From positions 1-52,904 of the IMG/VR virus record IMGVR_UViG_3300013123_000008: DNA of 52,904 bases; one strand, 5' to 3'. Positions 13,288 through 52,552 of the stretch are shown here, piece after piece (the stretch's first letter is position 1; every line of letters starts with the position of its first letter). This DNA comes from a virus. Lineage: Duplodnaviria; Caudoviricetes. The notes under the pieces were generated by a model, which did not search any database, was not told the origin of the DNA, and saw only the letters and a list, made by a program, of their open reading frames with translations. The position numbers and the translations under genes were made by a program.

Positions 13288-15837
13288 ATTTACACATCGA
13301 TATATTATGACCGTAATAAGAATCGCATCCATTTGTGGGATGATAAATTAGGATATAAAAATATTCCATATCGGAAGTATGCGTATATTTCAGATCCAGA
13401 TGGAAATTATTCTACTATATTTGGAAATACAGTATCTAGAATTACATCTTGGACTGATGATATGAAATCTCAGTTATGGGAATCAGATGTTTCTCCTGAA
13501 AATAGAACTTTAATAGATTTGTATTACAATTTTCCAGATAATGAATACCCTGAAAATAGAGTAATGACATTAGATATTGAAATTGAAACAAAACACGGTT
13601 TTGAAAATATGCATCTTGCACAAGATGTAGTAAATGCAATTTCAATTCACGATAGTCAAACAAATAAATACCATGCATTTATATTAGATTATGATGGGTC
13701 AATTGACACAAGCAAAATTTCTGAAAATAAAGATATTCATATTAATTTTTATAATAATGAAAAAGATCTATTATGTGATTGGTTAGATACTTTTGTATCA
13801 CTTAGACCCACAATTATTACTGGATGGAATATAGAATTCTTTGATATACCATATTTGGTCAGAAGAATTAGTAAACTTTTAGGTTCAGAATGGTTGAATA
13901 AATTATCACCAATTGGAATAATTAGATACTCAGAATTTAAAGAAAGATTTATAATAGCTGGGTTAAATACATTAGATTATTTATCTTTATATAAAAAGTT
14001 TACATTTTCAGAACAAGCAAATTATAGATTAGATTCAATAGCTAAAAACGAATTAGGTTATGGTAAAATTGAATTTGACGGAACATTAGAAACATTATAT
14101 CGAGATGATATTAATAAATTTTTGGAATATAATATTAATGATGTTAAGTTAGTTGTTGAAATTGATAATAAAAAGAAACTTATAGATTTAGCAATTGGTC
14201 TTTCTCATAAAGGAAAAATACCATATGAAGATGTTTTTTATCCATCTAAATATTTAGAAGGAGCAATATTAAGTTTTCTTAAAAAGGACAATTTAGTTGT
14301 TCCTAATAAACCACAGAAAGGTCAAACACTTCGTAAATTTGAAGGTGCATATGTTAAACGACCAATACCTGGATTATATGATTGGGTATTTGATTTAGAT
14401 TTAACATCTCTATATCCTTCAATAATTATGTCATTAAATATATCACCTGAAACTAAATTAGGTAAAGTAGTAAACTGGAATGAACTTGATTTTCATAGTA
14501 AAAAAGAACGTAAATGGACTGTTTCTGCTACACGGGCCGATGCATCATCTGATATAGAATTAAATACAGATGGATTAGTAGAATTATTAACTGATTCGAA
14601 ATGTTCAATTTCATCTAACGGAATTATTTATAAACCACATTCTGAATACGGTGTTATTCCTAGTATTTTATCAAAATGGTTCGACGAAAGAGTTGAATAT
14701 AAAAACCTAATGAAAAAATACGGTAAGTCTAATAATAAAGAAAAATATGACTTTTATGATAAATTACAAAATATCCAAAAGGTATTGTTAAATTCATTAT
14801 ATGGAGTACTAGGATTACCTGTATTTAGATTCTATGATTTAGATAATGCTACTGCAGTTACACTTACAGGCCAGACTATAATTAAATCTTCTGCAGCTAA
14901 GGTTAATGAATATTATAAAAATATATTGAGTACTAATGAAGATCATGTAGTATATATAGATACTGATTCTGTATTTGTTAGTGCTAAGCCATTATTAGAT
15001 AAATTATATCCAGATGCAGACCCAACAGATACAAAGAAAACTATTACAAATGTGGCCGAAATAGTTAATAATGTTCAAAAATATATAAATGATAGTTATG
15101 ATTTATTAGCTACTGACCAGTTATTTATAACATCAGGTAAACATAGGTTTCAAATTAAACAAGAATTAATATGTTTATCAGGGTTATGGACAGCTAAAAA
15201 ACGATATGCATTATTCGTTTTAAGTAGAGAAGGTATATTAATTAATAAATTAAAAGTAACTGGATTAGATACAGTTAGATCTTCTTTCCCACCGGCATTT
15301 GCTGGATTTATGGAAAAGACAATTAAGAATATTTTAGAAAAAATTCCTAAGGAACAAATTGACGCTGAAATATTATCTTTAGAAGATAATCTTATTAATA
15401 TTGAAGTAAGTAAAATATGTAAAAATACTTCTATAAGTGATATTACAAAATATTCTTCTTCATCGACAGATTTATTCTATAATGAAAGAATATTTAGTCC
15501 AATTAAAAAGGGTACACCTGCACATGTAAAAGCTGCTATAGCTTATAATGATTTAATTAGACATTATAATTTAGAAACAAAATATAATTTTATTAGAAAT
15601 AAAGATAAAGTTAAATGGTGTTATCTTAGAAAAAATAGGCTTGGGTTAGATAAAATAGCATTTAAAGGATTCAATGATCCACCTGAAATCATAAAGTTCA
15701 TTGATCAATATATAGATAAGCAAGCTATGTATGAATGTGAATTGAAATCAAAATTAGAAAATATTTTTGAAGCAATGAATTGGAAATTTCCAAATAAAAT
15801 GCAAGTCAAAGCAAGTAGATTTTTTAATATAAATTAA
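13288..15837 (+). CDS. Family B DNA polymerase (T4 gp43-like); probable ATT start upstream of the TTG in the ORF track
   Basis: DIE exo I, GWNIEFFDIPY exo II, YNINDV exo III, DLTSLYPS, KVLLNSLYG, YIDTDS, KKRYA; AAGGT 7 nt before in-frame ATT at 13288. Confidence 0.95.
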   Translation: MYTSIYYDRNKNRIHLWDDKLGYKNIPYRKYAYISDPDGNYSTIFGNTVSRITSWTDDMKSQLWESDVSPENRTLIDLYYNFPDNEYPENRVMTLDIEIETKHGFENMHLAQDVVNAISIHDSQTNKYHAFILDYDGSIDTSKISENKDIHINFYNNEKDLLCDWLDTFVSLRPTIITGWNIEFFDIPYLVRRISKLLGSEWLNKLSPIGIIRYSEFKERFIIAGLNTLDYLSLYKKFTFSEQANYRLDSIAKNELGYGKIEFDGTLETLYRDDINKFLEYNINDVKLVVEIDNKKKLIDLAIGLSHKGKIPYEDVFYPSKYLEGAILSFLKKDNLVVPNKPQKGQTLRKFEGAYVKRPIPGLYDWVFDLDLTSLYPSIIMSLNISPETKLGKVVNWNELDFHSKKERKWTVSATRADASSDIELNTDGLVELLTDSKCSISSNGIIYKPHSEYGVIPSILSKWFDERVEYKNLMKKYGKSNNKEKYDFYDKLQNIQKVLLNSLYGVLGLPVFRFYDLDNATAVTLTGQTIIKSSAAKVNEYYKNILSTNEDHVVYIDTDSVFVSAKPLLDKLYPDADPTDTKKTITNVAEIVNNVQKYINDSYDLLATDQLFITSGKHRFQIKQELICLSGLWTAKKRYALFVLSREGILINKLKVTGLDTVRSSFPPAFAGFMEKTIKNILEKIPKEQIDAEILSLEDNLINIEVSKICKNTSISDITKYSSSSTDLFYNERIFSPIKKGTPAHVKAAIAYNDLIRHYNLETKYNFIRNKDKVKWCYLRKNRLGLDKIAFKGFNDPPEIIKFIDQYIDKQAMYECELKSKLENIFEAMNWKFPNKMQVKASRFFNIN

Positions 15838-15847
15838 TAGGAACACA

Positions 15848-16609
15848 ATGTCAAAAATAAAAAAATCAGATTTTATTTCACTTATAAAGAAATATAATCT
15901 TAATTCAACAATTGAATCTGCAATTATTAATATCGATAATAATATGATGACTACTAATTTTATCTTAGATGATTATTCATTGAAAGGTAGAATAGTAAAT
16001 AAAGATTTTCAATATGATAATTCAAATTTTGCAATTACAGATACTTCTCAATTATTAAAAGTATTGACTATTTTAGATGAAGATGTTGAATTTAGTTTAA
16101 AAAAATCTGGTGATAGATGTAAAATTTTAGAATTAAATGATGAAAAAGTTTTACTTAAAATTGTTCTTGCAGATCCGGCATTAGTAAACTCAGTAGATCC
16201 AAACGTAAATAAACCAAACAATAATTTTATTAAATTAAATTTAACATCTGATATTTTATCTAAAATCAGTAAGTGTGTTGCATCATTAAATAAATGTGAA
16301 AAATTTAGTATTACAACAGATTCACTGGAAGGTAAAGTTATATTATCATTTAAAGAAAATTCTACAATAGGTTCAGTATACTCTAATTCTATAGATGATA
16401 ATACAGTTGCCTTTTCTTTTAATGTTCCAGACGTGGACATAGATATTAGTGCTATTGAATTTTTTTCTAATACACTTAAAAATATTATAGATGCAAATAG
16501 AGAATATGATTCATGTGATGTAATTATTTATAACGTAGGTCTTATGAGTTTAAAATTTAGTAACACTTTAACAGATGCAGACTATTATTTAGTAGCATTG
16601 AGTAATTAA
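15848..16609 (+). CDS. DNA sliding clamp (gp45/PCNA-like)
   Basis: 253 aa, between polymerase and clamp loader; FAITDTSQLLKVL, LADP, terminal YYLVAL. Confidence 0.8.
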   Translation: MSKIKKSDFISLIKKYNLNSTIESAIINIDNNMMTTNFILDDYSLKGRIVNKDFQYDNSNFAITDTSQLLKVLTILDEDVEFSLKKSGDRCKILELNDEKVLLKIVLADPALVNSVDPNVNKPNNNFIKLNLTSDILSKISKCVASLNKCEKFSITTDSLEGKVILSFKENSTIGSVYSNSIDDNTVAFSFNVPDVDIDISAIEFFSNTLKNIIDANREYDSCDVIIYNVGLMSLKFSNTLTDADYYLVALSN

Positions 16610-17562: not shown

Positions 17563-17751
17563 ATGCCATTTTATGATTATAAATGTGATGATTGTAATTA
17601 TGTCATTGAAGTAGTTAAAAGTATTAAAGATGAATCTCCTGTCAATTGTAAAAAATGTAAAAAACAAATGAGAAAATTAATAACTAACGTTTCATTTAAA
17701 TTAAATGGAAGTGGTTGGTTTAAAGATGGATATTCAAAACCAAAAAAATAA
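17563..17751 (+). CDS. FmdB-family zinc-ribbon protein
   Basis: MPFYDYKCDDC...CKKC...FKLNGSGWFKDGY. Confidence 0.85.
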   Translation: MPFYDYKCDDCNYVIEVVKSIKDESPVNCKKCKKQMRKLITNVSFKLNGSGWFKDGYSKPKK

Positions 17752-17761
17752 AGGAACCAAT

Positions 17762-18070
17762 ATGAATGTAGTTACTCCTGGACATCTATATATTTTAGAG
17801 TCATTAGAAGATACTAATCCTCAATATCTACAATTTATTCAAAAAGAAAAAATAGAAGATAAATTTGTCACAATTAAAGATGGAACAACAAATGAAGAAG
17901 TATTAAAGGTAATGATTGATCGTCTTAAAACCCTTGATGAAAAATTACCAAGTAGAGAAAATGCAATAGTAATTACTAAATTAGAAGAAGCGTTGATGTG
18001 GGTTGAAAAGAGAAGTAATATTAGAAAAACACAAGGTGTATATGGTACACCACTTCCACATAAATCATAA
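17762..18070 (+). CDS. tad1: Tad1-like cyclic-nucleotide sponge (anti-Thoeris/CBASS candidate)
   Basis: IDRL...SRENAIVITKLEEALMW..R...R...V.GT resembles the recalled Tad1 C-terminal hairpin; AAGGA RBS favours ATG 17762 over 17705. Confidence 0.7.
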   Translation: MNVVTPGHLYILESLEDTNPQYLQFIQKEKIEDKFVTIKDGTTNEEVLKVMIDRLKTLDEKLPSRENAIVITKLEEALMWVEKRSNIRKTQGVYGTPLPHKS

Positions 18071-18339: not shown

Positions 18340-18782
18340 TGAGTAAAAATTTCTTTGATCATCTCAACCAGGTTACTAAAATTCAAGATAAAAATTATTG
18401 GAAAACTTTAGATGAACCAAGTAGAAAAAATTGGAATACTTATATGATGTTAAGATATTTATCTATGAATCCAGACTGGATTAATATTGTAGATATTTTA
18501 CAAACACATTGTCATTCATTAGAAGATGAACATGTTTATAAATTGTTAATATCTTATATTCCTAAAGGAAATAGGTTCATTAAGTATATTAAGAGAGATA
18601 AAGGTGATGATAACATAAATAACATCTTACACATATTATGTAAATATTATGAATGCTCTAAACGCGAAGCAAAAGATATTTATAAAATATTAGATCAAAC
18701 AACAATTTCTAATATTATAGAAATAATGGGTGGTGAAATTGAAACTAAAAAACTTAAACCTAAAAAGAAAAAGAAACGATGA
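18339..18782 (+). CDS. Clamp loader small subunit (gp62-like)
   Basis: FFDHLN, YMMLRYLSMN, IPKG.RFIKYIK, YYECSKREA; near gp44/gp45 homologues. Confidence 0.75.
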   Translation: MSKNFFDHLNQVTKIQDKNYWKTLDEPSRKNWNTYMMLRYLSMNPDWINIVDILQTHCHSLEDEHVYKLLISYIPKGNRFIKYIKRDKGDDNINNILHILCKYYECSKREAKDIYKILDQTTISNIIEIMGGEIETKKLKPKKKKKR

Positions 18783-19240
18783 AAGAACTAGAAATAGATA
18801 TACGTGAACTTTGGAAAAATAAAAAATGGACATGTATAACTACAAATGGTTATGTAACTACATCAGGTAAATGTGTTATGGGCAGAGGAGTTGCATTAGA
18901 GGCAAAAAATCGATATTCGAATTTACCCACACAACTTGGATCCGCTATTAAAAAATACAATAACAGAGTATTTGTATTTCCGGACTATAAAATTATAACA
19001 TTTCCAGTTAAACATTTTTGGTATGAGACGGCAGATATAGAATTAATTAAGAAATCGTTTAATGAATTAAAAAACATTTTAAATTCACCTTTATTTAATA
19101 TAAAAGAAATTTATTTACCCCGTCCTGGATGTTCAAACGGAAAATTAAAATGGTCAGAAGTTAAAAAAGAATTAGAACCTATTTACGATGATCGAATTAT
19201 ATTTATAAATAAAAAGAAAGAAAAAAATGAAAATAGTTAA
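18779..19240 (+). CDS. Macrodomain (ADP-ribose binding/hydrolase) protein
   Basis: TTN, VMGRGVA, ITFPVKHFW, LPRPGCSNGKLKW. Confidence 0.8.
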   Translation: MKELEIDIRELWKNKKWTCITTNGYVTTSGKCVMGRGVALEAKNRYSNLPTQLGSAIKKYNNRVFVFPDYKIITFPVKHFWYETADIELIKKSFNELKNILNSPLFNIKEIYLPRPGCSNGKLKWSEVKKELEPIYDDRIIFINKKKEKNENS

Positions 19241-19736
19241 AGTTAGAAATGTTAAAACTCCTCATAGAGGAACACCTGGGTCTGCGGGCTTGGATTTTTT
19301 TGTTCCTGAATTTGATCAAAAATTTAAGGATGATTTTAAAGCTAAAAATCCTACAGTTGACATACGCTTTGATATTGATATTAATTCAGAATGTATAGAA
19401 CTTAAACCTCACACACGTGTATTAATTCCATCTGGTGTACATGTGAAATTTCCTAAATCATATGCCCTTATTGCATTTAATAAAAGTGGGGTATCAGTTA
19501 AAACCGGATTAGATCATGGGGCAGAAGTAGTTGACGATGATTATCAAGGTGAAATACATTTAAGTCTTGTTAATACAAGTTTAGAAAATGTATTAATAAA
19601 ACCGAATGATAAAATAATTCAATTTATTTTAATACCTGTATTAATAGAAGATGTATTTGAATTAACTTCATTAGATGAATTATATCCGGCTAAATCTGAA
19701 CGAGGTACAGGTGGTTTTGGTTCAACAAATAAGTAA
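19227..19736 (+). CDS. dut: Trimeric dUTPase
   Basis: SAGLD, KSG, VVDDDYQGE, IIQ, RGTGGFGST. Confidence 0.93.
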   Translation: MKIVKVRNVKTPHRGTPGSAGLDFFVPEFDQKFKDDFKAKNPTVDIRFDIDINSECIELKPHTRVLIPSGVHVKFPKSYALIAFNKSGVSVKTGLDHGAEVVDDDYQGEIHLSLVNTSLENVLIKPNDKIIQFILIPVLIEDVFELTSLDELYPAKSERGTGGFGSTNK

Positions 19737-43672: not shown

Positions 43673-44719
43673 ATGTTAAACAAAGAACTTCTTCAAAAAA
43701 TGGTTGATGAGAAATTCGTATCAGTTAAAAAACACCCTACTGAAGAATTGTGGATTTATAATTATACTCCATCTGCGGCTTATAGTCGTGTTTGGAACGA
43801 AGTCACTCTTATATGCAGAGGATTAGTTTTGGATGTTGAATATAATATTATAGCTCGTCCATTTAGAAAATTCTTTAATGTTGAGGAATTAGATCCAGAA
43901 ATAATTCCAAAATTACCATTTGATGTGTATGAAAAAATGGATGGGTCATTAGGAATAGTATTTTGTTGGAAAAATAGATGGATAATAGCAACTAGAGGTT
44001 CATTTGAATCTGAACAAGCTATTAAAGGACAAGAAATTTTAAATAGATCTAATATAAGTGCATTGTCTCCTGACTATACATATATGTTTGAAATAATTTA
44101 TCCTGAAAATAGAATCGTGATAAATTATGATTTTGAAGATTTAGTATTATTGGCGTGTATTGAACCTAAAAGTGGAATAGAAGTAGATATCCACAATGAT
44201 TATTATACTTCACGTTTTAGAGTTGTAAAAAAATATAATGGTCTTAAAGATTTTTCAACTTTAACATCTTTACAAGAAGATAATAAAGAAGGATTTGTTA
44301 TTAAATTTGAAAATAATTTTCGTATGAAAGTTAAGTTCGAAGAATATAAAAGACTTCATAGAATATTAACTGGGATATCTAATGTGACAGTCTGGGAATA
44401 TTTGTCTGACCATAAAGATATAAACGAACTATTAGAAAAAATACCAGATGAATTTTATATGTGGTTAAAAGATATAATAGTGGATTTGCGTTACAAATAC
44501 ACGACTGTTCAAGAATATGCTAGCAAATGTTTTGATGGTTTATTAGAAAACTTAAATGGTAAATTACCAATTAGAAAAGAATATGCTAAATGGGTAATGA
44601 AACATGAAAAATATATTCACGGAATATTATTCAGAATGTATGATAAAAAAGATTATTCAGAAATTATATGGAAAATAGTTAAACCTAAATGGTCAAAAGT
44701 ATTTAAATGCAGTGAATAA
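43673..44719 (+). CDS. rnlA: RNA ligase, T4 Rnl1-like
   Basis: CRGL, RPFRKFFN, EKMDGSL (KxDG), TRGSF, FEII, EGFVI, KVK. Confidence 0.9.
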   Translation: MLNKELLQKMVDEKFVSVKKHPTEELWIYNYTPSAAYSRVWNEVTLICRGLVLDVEYNIIARPFRKFFNVEELDPEIIPKLPFDVYEKMDGSLGIVFCWKNRWIIATRGSFESEQAIKGQEILNRSNISALSPDYTYMFEIIYPENRIVINYDFEDLVLLACIEPKSGIEVDIHNDYYTSRFRVVKKYNGLKDFSTLTSLQEDNKEGFVIKFENNFRMKVKFEEYKRLHRILTGISNVTVWEYLSDHKDINELLEKIPDEFYMWLKDIIVDLRYKYTTVQEYASKCFDGLLENLNGKLPIRKEYAKWVMKHEKYIHGILFRMYDKKDYSEIIWKIVKPKWSKVFKCSE

Positions 44720-44849
44720 ATTTAATTAACAATATCACTTTTTAGTTTAATTATTGTTTTAATAAATATGTTAGAGCGAATTACATTCAAACAAATGAAC
44801 ATTGGACTAAACGTTGGAAAAAAGTAAAATTAATTAATGAAAGTGCAAA

Positions 44850-45740
44850 ATGAAAGAGATTATTTTATTAATAGGATTACCTGGAAGTGGTAAAGATACT
44901 TGGTCATTAGAACAAATAAGAAAGTATCCAGGAAAATATAAACGTATTACTAAAGATATGTTGCGTGAAATGATGGATGATTCCAGATTTTCAAATGACA
45001 ATGAAAAAATGACATTAGAAGTTAGAGATGAAATAGTAAAAAAATCTTTAAGTAGAGGTTATTCAGTTATTATATCTGATACTAACTTTCCAGTAGGTGG
45101 AAAACATTTTAAAAGAATGTGTGAAATCGCGAAGTTGGTTGGTAATGTTAGAGTGTGGGAAAAATATTTTGATGTTGATATTAAAGAATGTAAAAGAAGA
45201 AATTTGTTGAGATCTAGAATTGTGCCTGAAGAAGTTATTGACCGAATGTTTGAAAAATATATTAAAGGAAGATCTTTTACTTTAGGTGATGAATATTTTC
45301 CAAAGTATGAAAAAATACCATATAATTTTGATTTGCCGGATTGTGTAATTTTTGATATTGATGGAACTTTGGCTCATATGAATGATAGAAGTCCATACGA
45401 ATGGTCAAAGGTAGGTGAAGATAAAAGTGATGTTTATTTATCTATTATTAGTAAATATTTAAAAACAGATACTAATTTGTTTATTTTTACTGGCAGGGAC
45501 GGGTCATGCTTAAATGAAACTAAAAACTGGTTAGATTTAGCTAATATAGGTTATGATAAGATTTTTATAAGACCTGCCGGAAATATGGAGAAAGATTCTT
45601 TAATAAAAGAAAGAATGTATAATGAGAATATTAAAGGTAAGTACAATGTTCTTTCAATTTTTGATGATAGAAACCAAGTAGTAGAAATGTGGAGATTATT
45701 AGGATTAACATGTTGCCAAGTCAATTATGGTGATTTTTGA
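44850..45740 (+). CDS. pseT: Polynucleotide 5'-kinase/3'-phosphatase (PNKP)
   Basis: GLPGSGK P-loop, SDTN; HAD FDIDGTLA, FTGR, FDDR. Confidence 0.93.
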   Translation: MKEIILLIGLPGSGKDTWSLEQIRKYPGKYKRITKDMLREMMDDSRFSNDNEKMTLEVRDEIVKKSLSRGYSVIISDTNFPVGGKHFKRMCEIAKLVGNVRVWEKYFDVDIKECKRRNLLRSRIVPEEVIDRMFEKYIKGRSFTLGDEYFPKYEKIPYNFDLPDCVIFDIDGTLAHMNDRSPYEWSKVGEDKSDVYLSIISKYLKTDTNLFIFTGRDGSCLNETKNWLDLANIGYDKIFIRPAGNMEKDSLIKERMYNENIKGKYNVLSIFDDRNQVVEMWRLLGLTCCQVNYGDF

Positions 45741-47840: not shown

Positions 47841-47939
47841 TTTTCGTAAAATGAAATATTTGGAAAAATTAAATATGTAAAGTTTATATTTCACTATATA
47901 TAAAAGATACTATCTTTTAATTTTAACGGGAATATAAAT

Positions 47940-48212: not shown

Positions 48213-48407
48213 AGTTATTTTCTCTATATATATAATATATGAAAATGTATAATTTTATATCACTCAATTTACATAAATTCACCCAAATGGAGATTAAATG
48301 GAATATGTGTGATTATAGAACATCGGCATTTTCACCCGAATATAGTTTATAATCATATCTAAAAGATTAGATTGATTATGGACTTCACAAAAGGTCTAAT
48401 CTTTTAT

Positions 48408-48623
48408 ATGCGAAAACTAAAATATATTTGTGATACATGTCGTCATTTAATATGTGTTCCATATTCAATTGAAAACTTACATAAATGGTGCATGATTTAG
48501 GTATCAAACGGATTTGGTTTAATAAAAATCGTTATGATATACCTAAAAAGAATTATTGAGATTTTAGTAAATGTGAAATATGAGTAATAGGATATAGTAA
48601 ACATTATTCTAAAAGAATTTTAA
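48408..48623 (+). pseudogene. Frameshifted small gene, DUF4031-like
   Basis: Joining frames gives MRKLKYICDTCRHLICVPYSIENLHK/MVHDLGIKRIWFNKNRYDIPK.../...IVNIILKEF*, similar to the LH..A..IG.KR.WF...HYD pattern; shifts fall at short homopolymers. Confidence 0.5.
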
Positions 48624-48822: not shown

Positions 48823-48936
48823 CATATAATTAAAATATAAAAACTGAAATTAAGAGTTCCTGTTTCAATTTATAAATTGGGAATTAATAATTCTCTAAAA
48901 AGATGAACTGAATACATTAATGTTCTTTAAATTTAT

Positions 48937-49064
48937 GGGCGCGAAATAAGATTGGATAGATATACAATGCGGTTATTAATATTTGAGAGGATAGGTTCTT
49001 TAGAATATTAATGACAGAAAATAGGTTAACCTCCTAAGTCGGTGGAATTCCGATCGCGTCTTCC
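48937..49064 (+). ncRNA. Mini tmRNA/tRNA-like RNA (acceptor stem with G3-U70, T-arm, long internal hairpin)
   Basis: gggcgcg/cgcgtct, gtcgg-TGGAATT-ccgat, 13-bp hairpin 48972-49015. Confidence 0.55.
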
Positions 49065-49155
49065 CTTTTTTCAACATATAATATCTGAAAATTTATTTTT
49101 AGATACTGTTTACTTTAATATACATATATGTATATTTAAATGTTAAATTAAATAG

Positions 49156-49166
49156 GTTCTTTGACA
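49156..49166 (+). promoter_or_regulatory. boxA-like antitermination element
   Basis: gttctttgaca between a TATATTTA box (49131) and the tRNA array; second copy tgttctttaaa at 48921. Confidence 0.55.
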
Positions 49167-49181
49167 TATTGAAAACCATAA

Positions 49182-49254
49182 GTATAAGATAGCATAATGG
49201 AAATGCGCTGGATGTTTCGTCCGGAGTATATGGGTTCGATTCCCATCTTATACT
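49182..49254 (+). tRNA. Atypical 8/4 tRNA-like gene, anticodon loop TGTTTCG (nominal TTT)
   Basis: gtataaga/tcttatac, gcat/atgc D stem, ctgga/tccgg, tggg-TTCGATT-ccca. Confidence 0.6.
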
Positions 49255-49262
49255 CAATATTT

Positions 49263-49331
49263 GCTAGTGACTTAGAGTAAGACGACCATTTATAAAATGG
49301 AAAGTAGGAGGTTAGAATCCTTCCATTAGTA
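49263..49331 (+). tRNA. Atypical tRNA-like gene with ATA anticodon and reduced D arm
   Basis: gctagtg/cattagt, ccat-TTATAAA-atgg, ggagg-TTAGAAT-ccttc. Confidence 0.5.
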
Positions 49332-49337
49332 AATCAT

Positions 49338-49414
49338 GTGTCAATGATTGCAATTTGGTAGACATCTGGTCCTTAGAAGACCGGTTTTTGAGAGTTCGAG
49401 CCTCTCTTGACACA
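49338..49414 (+). tRNA. tRNA-Leu(TAG) with short variable loop
   Basis: gtgtcaa/ttgacac, tggtc-CTTAGAA-gaccg, gagag-TTCGAGC-ctctc, A73. Confidence 0.85.
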
Positions 49415-49544
49415 CAAAATAAAACATGTAAAACATGATAAAATATAATTTTATAATATGACGAAACATATGAATGTAATTCATTAATTGATAAATATAA
49501 TTTATATATTAGAATGAAATACAATTTGTATTTTAAAACTTAGT

Positions 49545-50318: not shown

Positions 50319-50395
50319 GGGACATGGGACTGCATAGGGGTGGTCGTCGCACTTGCAATGCGAATACCAGGCCGGATCGTTACCGACATGTTCCA
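50319..50395 (+). tRNA. tRNA-Ala(TGC)
   Basis: gggacat/atgttcc with G3-U70, tcgca-CTTGCAA-tgcga, atypical T loop ATCGTTA. Confidence 0.85.
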
Positions 50396-50473
50396 CTTAG
50401 GAAATATAAGTTCAAATCTTATTATGATGAATATATTCATCTGTCGTCTAATTGGTTAGGACACCTGACGTTT
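50396..50473 (+). ncRNA. Circularly permuted tRNA-like gene (3' half precedes 5' half) or YrlA-like tRNA mimic
   Basis: ttagg-aaat-ataag TTCAAAT cttat-tatgatga, linker atatat, tcatctg-tc-gtct aattggtta ggac-a-cctga; halves pair in both acceptor and anticodon stems. Confidence 0.6.
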
Positions 50474-50543
50474 ATTAGTAACATGAAATTTAAGTTATTA
50501 TTTAAATGTTGCGTAAGTTGAAAGTATCATATTAATAATTTAT

Positions 50544-50942
50544 GGGGATGAAAAGGTATCGATTAGTATTGTTAAGTATATGAGTGCAAATGGACATGAT
50601 GAAGTCCTAAAATTGATCAACAAAATAAGTGCAGAAAAATCAAATACATTCGTTACACCAACTGGAGAACTAGTTCGTGAATATGAATACGCCTTAGCAG
50701 CTTAATAAGCTCTAAGTCATTTCAAAGTGGATTCTCAATTAAATTTTGAAGTGTAACTATTTGAGATTAGCTGAGATTAGAAAATTATTACAGCGAATAT
50801 AAAAAATAAATTTATCTGTTTATAAGTATCGGAATTAAACTTATCGTTTTTGATAAATAATTCGTAATAAAATTTATCTATATTTGTAAATGACTTATAT
50901 ATTTTTAATGTTAAGACGTGGGTTCGACTCCCACCATCTCCA
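50544..50942 (+). ncRNA. ssrA: tmRNA
   Basis: GGGGATG...GGTATCGA 5' end; GACGTGGGTTCGACTCCCACCATCTCCA 3' end with G3-U70; tag frame 50631-50705 AEKSNTFVTPTGELVREYEYALAA*. Confidence 0.93.
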
Positions 50943-50947
50943 CACAT

Positions 50948-51020
50948 GCTACTGTCGTCTAATGGTTTAAGGCACTTGACTGATACTCAGGATACGAAAG
51001 TTCAATTCTTTCCAGTAGTA
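50948..51020 (+). tRNA. tRNA-Ile(GAT)
   Basis: gctactg/cagtagt, cttga-CTGATAC-tcagg. Confidence 0.88.
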
Positions 51021-51519: not shown

Positions 51520-51609
51520 GGGGATTGTTGCAATAATTTATGATGGTTTAACGTTACTGTTTTAATATTATTTTCCTGAATATTTGAGGCAACATATAAG
51601 GTATCCCCA
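51520..51609 (+). ncRNA. Unassigned structured RNA candidate
   Basis: ggggat/atcccc terminal stem followed by ACC; tgttgc/gcaaca inner stem. Confidence 0.4.
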
Positions 51610-51623
51610 CCCTTTGAAAAGTA

Positions 51624-51973: not shown

Positions 51974-51976
51974 CAA

Positions 51977-52060
51977 TAGAAAATCAGTAGGGAAGTCTGT
52001 AACACCGGTCCTTTCAAAGTCGCAGTAAACTTGCAGATAACTGACGGTGCTGATTTTCTA
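51977..52060 (+). ncRNA. Unassigned long-hairpin RNA (loosely SRP 4.5S-like)
   Basis: 13-bp tagaaaatcagta/tgctgattttcta plus tctgtaa/ttgcaga; GC-rich interior. Confidence 0.5.
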
Positions 52061-52067
52061 ATTTGTT

Positions 52068-52465: not shown

Positions 52466-52552
52466 TGCGGGTTCCCATTAGAGGTCTAGATGGCGGGGCT
52501 CATAACCCTAGGGATCAAAAGTCCGTCGGAGGTTCGAATCCTTCACCCGCTA
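52466..52552 (+). tRNA. Initiator-type tRNA-fMet(CAT) with long variable arm
   Basis: U1:U72 mismatch, GGG/CCC in the anticodon stem, CTCATAA loop, variable region gggatcaaaagtccgtc. Confidence 0.8.

What the first reader, a model, noticed from the sequence alone, without database searches (positions are those of the whole stretch)
48937..49064. Mini tmRNA-like RNA: tRNA-like domain without an mRNA domain
It mirrors the ends of the true tmRNA downstream: GGGCGCG-AAATAA-GATTGGA-TAG versus GGGGATG-AAAA-GGTATCGA-TTAG, a stemless D loop, a 7-bp acceptor stem with the G3-U70 Ala determinant, and a T arm. The body is only about 75 nt with a 13-bp hairpin, and there is no anticodon arm or tag ORF. 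It could be an SmpB or AlaRS decoy, a tag-less rescue RNA or a nuclease decoy. Caveats: T loop is TGGAATT and the discriminator is U.
Basis: partly seen in the sequence, partly recalled or inferred. Interest (0 to 1): 0.7.

Follow-up and report, generated by a model that had tools for sequence, protein, structure and literature searches.

The report
Orphan tRNA-shaped RNA in phage tRNA cluster
A 128-base stretch in the tRNA gene cluster of an uncultured T4-like lake phage folds like a tRNA whose anticodon arm is replaced by a long rod, so it is probably a non-decoding tRNA mimic like the unexplained "species 1" RNA of phage T4, not a miniature tmRNA.

Summary
The structure is real. Positions 48937-49064 (+) fold into a 7-bp G+C-rich closing stem (G1.U72, G3.U70) stacked on a 5-bp hairpin with a 7-nt loop. 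Inside lie a 13-bp rod, a small hairpin and a D-loop-like GAUUGG. MFE is -34.5 kcal/mol, z = -2.8. In the whole window only five tRNAs and this element meet a strict acceptor/T-arm descriptor; 2 of 200 shuffles gave any hit. Its ends match its neighbours: a TTTAT leader, shared with the tmRNA and three tRNAs, and C at position 74.

It is not a tRNA, tmRNA, Y RNA or any other Rfam family, and not an intron-bearing tRNA. The T loop is UGGAAUU, the discriminator is U, and a tmRNA-like helix 2 costs 5.7 kcal/mol. The resemblance to the tmRNA ends is generic.

I found no homologue in phage records, IMG/VR, metagenome or genome pattern scans, or in about 2.8 Mb of related loci. Covariation and expression are therefore untested.

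The closest known thing is T4 rnaC (species 1 RNA): same setting and architecture, but no detectable homology, and its function is also unknown.

Best reading (0.55): a non-decoding tRNA mimic matured by RNase P, 3' trimming and CCA addition.

The parts
48932..48936 (+). 5' leader TTTAT directly before G+1; presumed RNase P site
   Evidence: TTTATG occurs 7 times in the 4.76-kb array. Six of these lie exactly at the 5' end of a structured RNA: this element, tRNA-Gly(gcc), tmRNA, tRNA-Lys(ttt), tRNA-Met and the second odd element at 51520.
   Evidence: Fold, z-score and pair probabilities; strict descriptor.
48937..48943 (+). 5' strand of the acceptor-like closing stem, GGGCGCG
   Evidence: Pairs with 49055-49061; probabilities 0.74-1.0.
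48944..48971 (+). D-region analogue: AAAUAAGAUUGGAUAGAUAUACAAUGCG, with GG at positions 18-19
   Evidence: Read from the sequence. The MFE gives a weak 4-bp stem at 15-18/29-32, probability 0.79-0.85.
48972..49015 (+). 44-nt rod in the place of the anticodon arm: 13 bp, a 1x1 internal loop, 6 bp and a UAGG loop. There is no 7-nt anticodon loop.
   Evidence: probabilities 0.89-1.0.
49022..49036 (+). small hairpin UAGG-UUAACCU-CCUA in the position of the variable arm
   Evidence: probabilities 0.77-0.88.
49038..49054 (+). T-arm analogue GUCGG-UGGAAUU-CCGAU: 5 bp and a 7-nt loop that keeps U54, R57, A58 and the G53-C61 pair, but has GG at 55-56
49055..49061 (+). 3' strand of the closing stem, CGCGUCU
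49062..49071 (+). U73, then CCC, then UUUUUU. C74 and C75 are encoded; A76 is not.
   Evidence: 20 of the 21 ARAGORN-called array RNAs have C at position 74 (all but the Met gene at 52466). Two encode CCA.
49082..49105 (+). AU-rich 10-bp hairpin 20 nt downstream; a possible weak terminator of the unit that ends with E1
   Evidence: Fold of 49063-49181, z = -2.19. The terminator scan did not flag it.
49161..49190 (+). promoter-like TTGACA-18-TAAGAT before the next gene, tRNA-Lys
   Evidence: 10 of 12 positions match. A consensus match only.

Best explanation
E1 is a real gene for a non-decoding, tRNA-shaped small RNA that belongs to the phage's tRNA/tmRNA cluster.

How it would be made (inferred):
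- It is transcribed with, or just after, tRNA-Trp.
- Host RNase P cuts its 5' end at UUUAU|G.
- Its 3' end is trimmed to U73-C74-C75 and completed to CCA.
- The handle for all three enzymes is the 12-bp coaxial acceptor/T-arm stack.

What it can and cannot do:
- A 44-nt rod stands where the anticodon arm should be, so it cannot read codons (shown).
- As a stable tRNA mimic it most likely occupies a host protein that binds tRNA, such as a synthetase, a modification or repair enzyme, or a tRNA-cleaving defence nuclease (inferred).
- Its G3.U70 pair makes charging with alanine possible (inferred).

It is the working counterpart of T4 species 1 RNA (rnaC). It is not a miniature tmRNA.
For: Shown:
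- A stable five-helix fold with a G+C-rich closing stem in 26% G+C DNA.
- The strict acceptor/T-arm descriptor hits only 5 tRNAs and E1 in the window, and 2 of 200 shuffles.
- The flank upstream is unstructured, z = +0.13.
- It does not overlap a credible ORF.
- It lies on the same strand as, and between, tRNA-Trp and tRNA-Lys in an array of 20 tRNAs and a tmRNA.
- It has the same TTTAT leader as the tmRNA and three tRNAs, and C74 like 20 of the 21 called array RNAs.
- RNA ligase 1 and polynucleotide kinase genes lie 3-5 kb upstream.

Precedent:
- T4 rnaC lies in the T4 tRNA cluster.
- Its family has a closing stem, a long hairpin, a second hairpin and a T arm: 46 pairs, 19 of them with compensatory changes, in 5 sequences.
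- RNAC is detected as a late RNA by Northern blot, function unknown (passages of PMC9697503; PMC3014915).
- RNase P cleaves non-tRNA substrates, among them pre-tmRNA and phage RNAs (passage of PMC11143913).
Against: - No homologue was found, so there is no covariation and no evidence of conservation.
- Public contigs that cover it are identical to the window.
- Nothing shows that it is expressed.
- The T loop has GG at positions 55-56, so the usual D-loop/T-loop elbow pair cannot form as in a tRNA.
- The discriminator is U and the first pair is G.U. Both are unfavourable for AlaRS (established knowledge, not tested).
- No promoter-like site was found between tRNA-Trp and E1.
- The rnaC model scores E1 at 6.5 bits (E = 0.77), below ten other matches, most of them ordinary tRNAs.
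- The loose geometry alone is common by chance in this DNA.
Confidence: 0.55

Rival explanations
1. A signal that acts only in cis. The tRNA-like fold serves as a cutting and 3'-end-forming mark for the transcript that carries tRNA-Trp, as t-elements do in plant mitochondria. The excised piece has no role of its own.
For: - E1 is the last structured element before an AU-rich hairpin and a promoter-like site for tRNA-Lys.
- A U-tract follows the fold.
- tRNA-like t-elements that define transcript ends are described in the abstract and listing of PMC1920247.
Against: - A mark for cutting needs only the acceptor/T-arm stack. The 44-nt rod, the extra hairpin and the D-loop-like motif would be superfluous.
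- tRNA-Trp has its own processing signals.
Confidence: 0.15
2. One reading: a tmRNA-derived tRNA-like domain that is charged with alanine and binds SmpB. It would act as a tag-less rescue RNA or as a sink for AlaRS or SmpB.
For: - G3.U70 and G2-C71 are present.
- Only the tmRNA and the low-score tRNA-Ala call at 50319-50396 share G3.U70 in the array.
- It has the same TTTAT leader as the tmRNA.
- The tmRNA 5' end is narrowly the best match to its 5' end.
Against: - No tmRNA or mt-tmRNA match in Rfam or ARAGORN.
- T loop UGGAAUU against UUCGACU in the phage's own tmRNA; U73 instead of A73; G1.U72.
- GG in the tRNA register.
- A helix-2-like fold is 5.7 kcal/mol worse.
- No SmpB gene in the window, which holds only 28% of the genome.
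Confidence: 0.1
3. A decaying relic of a tRNA or tmRNA gene, or a fold that arose by chance, with no function.
For: - It is an orphan with no homologue in any search.
- The array holds other degenerate pieces: a tRNA 5' half at about 50441-50483 and low-score tRNA calls.
- The T loop is not canonical.
Against: - All 35 pairs of the model fold are standard pairs.
- 1 of 200 shuffles folds as well, and 2 of 200 shuffles meet the descriptor.
- The leader and C74 are kept.
- A relic would be expected to lose pairing first.
Confidence: 0.15
4. A bacterial Y-RNA-like (YrlA-type) RNA that tethers a Ro60 protein through a tRNA-like module.
For: It has a tRNA-like module joined to a long stem, and RNA repair genes lie nearby.
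Against: - No Y RNA or YrlA match at E <= 10.
- No TROVE/Ro60 gene in the window, although the window is only 28% of the genome.
- In E1 the ends form the acceptor-like stem, not a Ro-binding stem (the YrlA layout is recalled, not tested).
Confidence: 0.02

Closest known systems
Phage T4 species 1 RNA (rnaC)
   Same: - Both are encoded inside the tRNA cluster of a T4-like phage.
- Similar size: 139 nt against 128 nt.
- The ends pair into a 7-bp acceptor-like stem that stacks on a 5-bp, 7-nt-loop T arm.
- Inside are a long hairpin followed by a shorter one, and no anticodon loop.
- In Klebsiella phage KaAlpha the rnaC-like gene also follows tRNA-Trp.
- The function of rnaC is unknown.
   Different: - No detectable homology: the rnaC model gives 6.5 bits (E = 0.77), below the tRNAs.
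- rnaC has a canonical UUCGAAU T loop and two U.U mismatches in its closing stem.
- rnaC has no G3.U70.
- rnaC has 5 nt between its second hairpin and the T arm. E1 has 1.
tmRNA tRNA-like domain (Rfam RF00023, and the mitochondrial mt-tmRNA family)
   Same: An acceptor stem with G3.U70, a D region without a strong stem, a T arm and no anticodon.
   Different: - No model match.
- Non-canonical T loop.
- U73.
- No helix 2, no pseudoknots and no tag frame.
tRNA-like processing signals (plant mitochondrial t-elements)
   Same: An acceptor/T-arm mimic that RNase P and 3' enzymes could cut out of a longer transcript.
   Different: Those are minimal mimics beside mRNAs. E1 carries about 90 nt of additional ordered structure and sits among tRNAs.
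Intron-bearing tRNA genes in other phage arrays
   Same: Long tRNA-shaped genes of 104-126 nt in phage tRNA arrays with an enlarged anticodon region.
   Different: Those keep canonical D and T arms, and ARAGORN's intron mode reads them as tRNA-Asn(gtt) with 51 nt inserted, or as a UUA-anticodon tRNA with 13 nt inserted. The same mode finds nothing in E1.

Membership tests
tmRNA (tRNA-like domain) | G3.U70 in a 7-bp acceptor stem | tested here: met
   G3 (48939) pairs with U (49059); read from the sequence.
tmRNA (tRNA-like domain) | Discriminator A73 followed by CCA | tested here: not met
   U73, then CCC. The phage's own tmRNA has A73.
tmRNA (tRNA-like domain) | Canonical T loop | tested here: not met
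   UGGAAUU against UUCGACU in the tmRNA of the same window.
tmRNA (tRNA-like domain) | Helix 2, pseudoknots and a tag reading frame | tested here: not met
   A forced helix-2-like fold gives -28.8 against -34.5 kcal/mol. ARAGORN reports no tmRNA here in five settings.
tmRNA (tRNA-like domain) | Match to the Rfam tmRNA-clan models | tested here: not met
   No match at gathering score or at E <= 10 on 411 nt.
tmRNA (tRNA-like domain) | Alanylation and SmpB binding | not testable with these tools
   Needs biochemistry. No SmpB gene in the window.
tRNA (RF00005) | Cloverleaf with a 5-bp anticodon stem and a 7-nt loop; model match | tested here: not met
   A 44-nt rod replaces the anticodon arm. 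No RF00005 match at E <= 10. ARAGORN finds none, also with introns allowed. The only overlapping call is a complementary-strand 'tRNA-Asp' with an 870-nt intron at the 80% threshold, which I take as spurious.
tRNA (RF00005) | 7-bp acceptor stem stacked directly on a 5-bp T stem with a 7-nt loop | tested here: met
T4 rnaC (species 1 RNA) | Encoded within a T4-like phage tRNA cluster | tested here: met
   (PolB of the T4 type, phrog_262; tRNA array).
T4 rnaC (species 1 RNA) | Architecture: closing stem, long hairpin, second hairpin, T arm; 120-140 nt | tested here: met
   Compare.
T4 rnaC (species 1 RNA) | Sequence and structure homology (covariance model built from 5 of 748 matching records) | tested here: not met
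   6.5 bits, E = 0.77, ranked 11th behind ten other matches, most of them ordinary tRNAs.
T4 rnaC (species 1 RNA) | Accumulates as a discrete stable RNA | not testable with these tools
   No RNA run was listed for this DNA.
Y RNA / YrlA | Model match and a Ro60 (TROVE) gene nearby | tested here: not met
   The window is only 28% of the genome.
t-element-type processing signal | tRNA-like fold at a transcript end, cut by RNase P or RNase Z | tested here: inconclusive
   The position before a hairpin and a promoter-like site fits. Transcript ends are unknown.

The most novel reading that the evidence does not exclude
E1 is an alanine-accepting tRNA mimic without an anticodon. After RNase P cleavage and CCA addition, AlaRS charges it through G3.U70. 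It then acts outside normal decoding in one of three ways: as a sink that ties up AlaRS, SmpB or EF-Tu; as a tag-less helper beside the phage's tmRNA; or as bait for host nucleases that cut tRNA. Together with the RNA ligase and kinase genes upstream, it would be part of a phage toolkit for the conflict over tRNA.
Probability: 0.1. Interest if true: 0.8.

Novelty: new variant of a known kind. Interest (0 to 1): 0.42.

Why it matters
- Phage T4's two small stable RNAs from its tRNA cluster have had no known function for decades (passages).
- E1 is an independent, unrelated-in-sequence example of the same design in a distant T4-like lake phage. This suggests that non-decoding tRNA mimics recur in phage tRNA clusters and are not a T4 oddity.
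- E1 adds a G3.U70 pair and a T loop that keeps only the core of the motif. That gives concrete handles for experiments on what such RNAs bind.
- If it proved to be a decoy for host tRNA-binding enzymes or defence nucleases, it would add an RNA-based counter-measure to the known protein and tRNA ones.

Tried and rejected
**Homologue searches, all negative**
- blastn against 50,697 phage records.
- A 21-mer in IMG/VR.
- Neighbour proteins as anchors in IMG/VR.
- The 176-aa neighbour in 5.8 billion protein clusters: only itself at 99% identity.
- Loops-only patterns: IMG/VR 0 and 0. Metagenomes gave 3 hits, none with paired stems or a full model match.
- The 21-mer in GTDB genomes: 5 hits, all in G+C-rich DNA. 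The Nocardia hit that I read looks like coding sequence; the best model hit, L228 at E = 0.13, overlaps long ORFs.

**Single-sequence model R1**
- 38 sources, 475 kb: the best non-self hit has E = 0.42 and is tRNA-like. A hit in L093 lies in an ORF.
- 20 whole related records: 0 of 20.
- 43 loci, 784 kb: the best hits have E = 2.1 and 3.4, both inside ORFs.
- 89 and 37 further loci: 0 at E <= 1.

**Relatives and reads**
- The nearest relative by polymerase (60% identity) has a syntenic array, but its contig ends inside tRNA-Trp, just where a homologue would lie.
- Public runs: no RNA holder listed. Contigs of 4 lake-water DNA runs that cover the element are identical to the window, so they give no variants. 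One of these runs may be the source of this DNA.

**Ideas dropped**
- Intron-containing tRNA: ARAGORN's intron mode finds nothing.
- attP-type copy of a host tRNA 3' end: no such match in the genome scan.
- Anti-Shine-Dalgarno mimic (ACCUCCU at 49029-49035): 2 occurrences in the window, 2.05 expected.
- The repeat AUAGGUU occurs twice inside E1, but 16 times in the window against 12.7 expected.
- The second odd element at 51520-51612 does not fold better than shuffles, z = -1.1.

Full report
**Setting.** The window is an IMG/VR virus record of 52,904 bases, 26% G+C, estimated 28% complete.
- All long ORFs are on the + strand.
- It is a distant T4-like phage. Its PolB matches phrog_262 (E = 1.4e-200) and is 43% identical to Microcystis phage Mel-JY01 and about 35% to cyanomyoviruses.
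- Contigs of lake-water metagenomes hold the same DNA.
- From about 47.85 kb to the end lies an array of 20 tRNA genes and a tmRNA at 50544-50945.
- Directly upstream are genes for RNA ligase 1 (43673-44719), polynucleotide kinase (44850-45740), a methyltransferase and a phosphoesterase.

| Element | Positions (1 = 48937) | Detail |
|---|---|---|
| Closing stem | 1-7 / 119-125 | G1.U72, G2-C71, G3.U70, then four G-C or C-G pairs |
| Weak hairpin | 15-32 | 4-bp stem |
| Rod | 36-79 | 13 bp, a 1x1 loop, 6 bp, UAGG loop |
| Small hairpin | 86-100 | 4-bp stem, 7-nt loop |
| T-like arm | 102-118 | 5-bp stem, 7-nt loop UGGAAUU, abutting the closing stem |

- The MFE of -34.5 kcal/mol lies 2.8 standard deviations below dinucleotide shuffles; 1 of 200 shuffles does as well.
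- All helices have high pair probabilities.
- Geometry alone is cheap in this AT-rich DNA. A descriptor that ignores base composition hits 118 times on the + strand and 78 times on the - strand.
- With at least 4 G-C pairs in the closing stem and at least 3 in the T stem, 6 hits remain in the whole window on both strands: five tRNAs and this element. Block shuffles of the array give 0.01 hits on average, and 2 of 200 give any.
- The 147 nt upstream are unstructured, z = +0.13.
- No credible ORF overlaps the element.

**Its ends look like those of its neighbours.**
- The hexamer TTTATG occurs 7 times in the 4.76-kb array. Six of these lie exactly at the first base of a structured RNA: this element, the tmRNA, tRNA-Gly(gcc), tRNA-Lys(ttt), tRNA-Met and a second odd element at 51520.
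- 20 of the 21 ARAGORN-called array RNAs have C right after the discriminator. E1 has U73-C-C-C, then six U.
- I infer, but have not shown, that E1 is cut by RNase P, trimmed and given its terminal A like a tRNA.
- No promoter-like site lies between tRNA-Trp and E1.
- Downstream are an AU-rich hairpin (49082-49105) and a TTGACA-18-TAAGAT site before tRNA-Lys. E1 may therefore close a transcription unit.

**What it is not.**
- ARAGORN does not call it in default, intron, 80%-threshold, intron plus 80%-threshold or mitochondrial mode. The one overlapping call is a complementary-strand tRNA with an 870-nt "intron", which I take as spurious.
- Rfam gives nothing at gathering scores. At E <= 10 on 411 nt it gives only rli38 (19.6 bits against a cut-off of 49) and a truncated DUF2693 RNA hit beside the element. 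There is no tRNA, tmRNA, mt-tmRNA or Y RNA match.
- Against a tmRNA kinship:
  - The T loop differs from the canonical one of the phage's own tmRNA.
  - The discriminator is U.
  - The GG of the D-like loop is at positions 18-19 as in tRNAs, not 12-13 as in this phage's tmRNA.
  - A helix-2-like pairing costs 5.7 kcal/mol.
  - Among 25 array RNAs, the tmRNA 5' end is only marginally the nearest to E1's and its 3' end is not the nearest.
- No SmpB, Ro60 or CCA-adding enzyme gene lies in the window, which is only part of the genome.
- From memory, not from a call: the loop UGGAA fits the general T-loop motif (U, any, any, purine, A), although not the tRNA version.

**No homologue.**
- Sequence, pattern and model searches of phage records, IMG/VR, JGI metagenomes, GTDB genomes and about 2.8 Mb of loci from related phages found nothing that is not coding or a chance match. 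The list is under Tried and rejected.
- The nearest relatives share 60% PolB identity.
- One of them has a syntenic tRNA array downstream of the same glycosyltransferase gene pair, but its contig stops inside tRNA-Trp, the gene that precedes E1 in the window.
- Contigs from four lake runs are identical over the element.
- Conservation, covariation and expression therefore remain open.

**Closest known.**
- T4 rnaC (species 1 RNA) lies in the T4 tRNA cluster.
- I aligned five family members, chosen from the 40 listed rows of 748 matching records. The alignment supports 46 pairs, 19 of them with compensatory changes: a 7-bp closing stem with two U.U mismatches, a long hairpin, a 10-bp hairpin and a canonical T arm.
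- That is the order of parts in E1.
- Rfam has no family for rnaC.
- A model of the rnaC family scores E1 at 6.5 bits, below ten other matches, most of them ordinary tRNAs. E1 is therefore an analogue, not a demonstrable member.
- The papers I read in passages say that RNAC and RNAD are late RNAs of unknown role (PMC3014915; PMC12685909; PMC9697503).

**Mechanism and odds.**

| Reading | Odds |
|---|---|
| Expressed, non-decoding tRNA mimic matured by the tRNA machinery | 0.55 |
| Cis-only processing or termination signal | 0.15 |
| Relic or chance fold | 0.15 |
| Alanine-accepting mini-tmRNA | 0.10 |
| Y-RNA-like | 0.02 |

- The RNA repair genes next door and the three tRNA-Lys genes make the conflict over tRNA the most natural context. 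This is inference.

**Verdict.** E1 is a real and unusual structure, and an orphan. It is best filed as a new variant of the phage tRNA-cluster small RNAs typified by T4 species 1 RNA. The interest is moderate, because neither expression nor conservation could be shown.

Noticed in passing
window 51520-51612 (+): A second non-tRNA element between two tRNA-Ser genes. It has a TTTAT leader, a GGGGAU/AUCCCC closing stem and an A-CCC-UUU tail like E1, but no T arm. Its fold is not better than shuffles (z = -1.1).
   Followed up: partly
window 51975-52067 (+): A 93-nt spacer between tRNA-Arg and tRNA-Lys closed by a 13-bp stem (GAAAAUCAG.../...CUGAUUUUC). z = -1.85; 7 of 200 shuffles fold as well.
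   Followed up: partly
window 49258-49415, 50319-50396, 47847-47927: tRNA-like genes missed by default ARAGORN and called only at low threshold or in mitochondrial mode: Tyr(ata) with T loop TTAGAAT, Leu(tag), Ala(tgc) with G3.U70, and Tyr(gta). A low-threshold His(gtg) call at 48401-48476 looks spurious.
   Followed up: partly
window 50441-50483 (+): An apparent 5' half of a tRNA that resembles the start of tRNA-Ile at 50948, lying just before the tmRNA.
   Followed up: no
window 48628, 48789, 52158 (+): The 9-mer CTATGTACA occurs exactly three times on the + strand inside the 5-kb array and once on the - strand in the other 48 kb. It lies 53-148 nt upstream of tRNA-Trp, E1 and tRNA-Glu and may be a promoter element.
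   Followed up: partly
window 43673-45740 and the array: RNA ligase 1 and polynucleotide kinase genes, the T4 pair that repairs cut tRNA, lie just upstream of an array with three tRNA-Lys genes.
   Followed up: partly
L101:3456-3577 and 11 further IMG/VR loci (L098, L104, L106, L107, L112, L113, L116, L121, L129, L133, L134): A 122-nt tRNA gene, 98% conserved. It has canonical acceptor, D and T arms and a 51-nt insertion inside the anticodon. In L101 it lies right after a normal tRNA-Asn gene. ARAGORN's intron mode reads it as tRNA-Asn(gtt). The insertion is far too short for a group I intron.
   Followed up: partly
L101:3162-3373 and the same gap in L108, L113, L117, L121, L129, L116, L107, L134, L098, L106: In the same foreign phage lineage the gap after tRNA-Trp holds a conserved tRNA-like gene. 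Its anticodon loop differs in sequence and length between otherwise near-identical copies.
   Followed up: no
L096:18353-18458 (record G005, PolB 39% identical): A 106-nt tRNA-like gene that ARAGORN's intron mode reads as a UUA-anticodon (stop-reading) tRNA with a 13-nt insertion.
   Followed up: no
L093:15385-19538 (record G001): The nearest relative's tRNA array holds three ORFs between the tRNA genes (about 15539-15820, 15826-16309 and 18899-19393). I did not annotate them; by eye two look like homing endonucleases. It also holds what looks by eye like a cold-shock protein gene (about 18539-18742), and a 245-nt stretch closed by an 11-bp stem (17668-17912).
   Followed up: no
L013, L014, L019 (PolB matches): The PolB match in the three nearest relatives spans 2994 bases, against 2505 in the window. 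This suggests an insertion such as an intein or intron in their polymerase gene.
   Followed up: no
L140:174-321 (Klebsiella phage KaAlpha): An unannotated rnaC-like RNA lies between tRNA-Trp and tRNA-Gly. Its long hairpin has diverged from the T4 one, with compensatory changes.
   Followed up: partly
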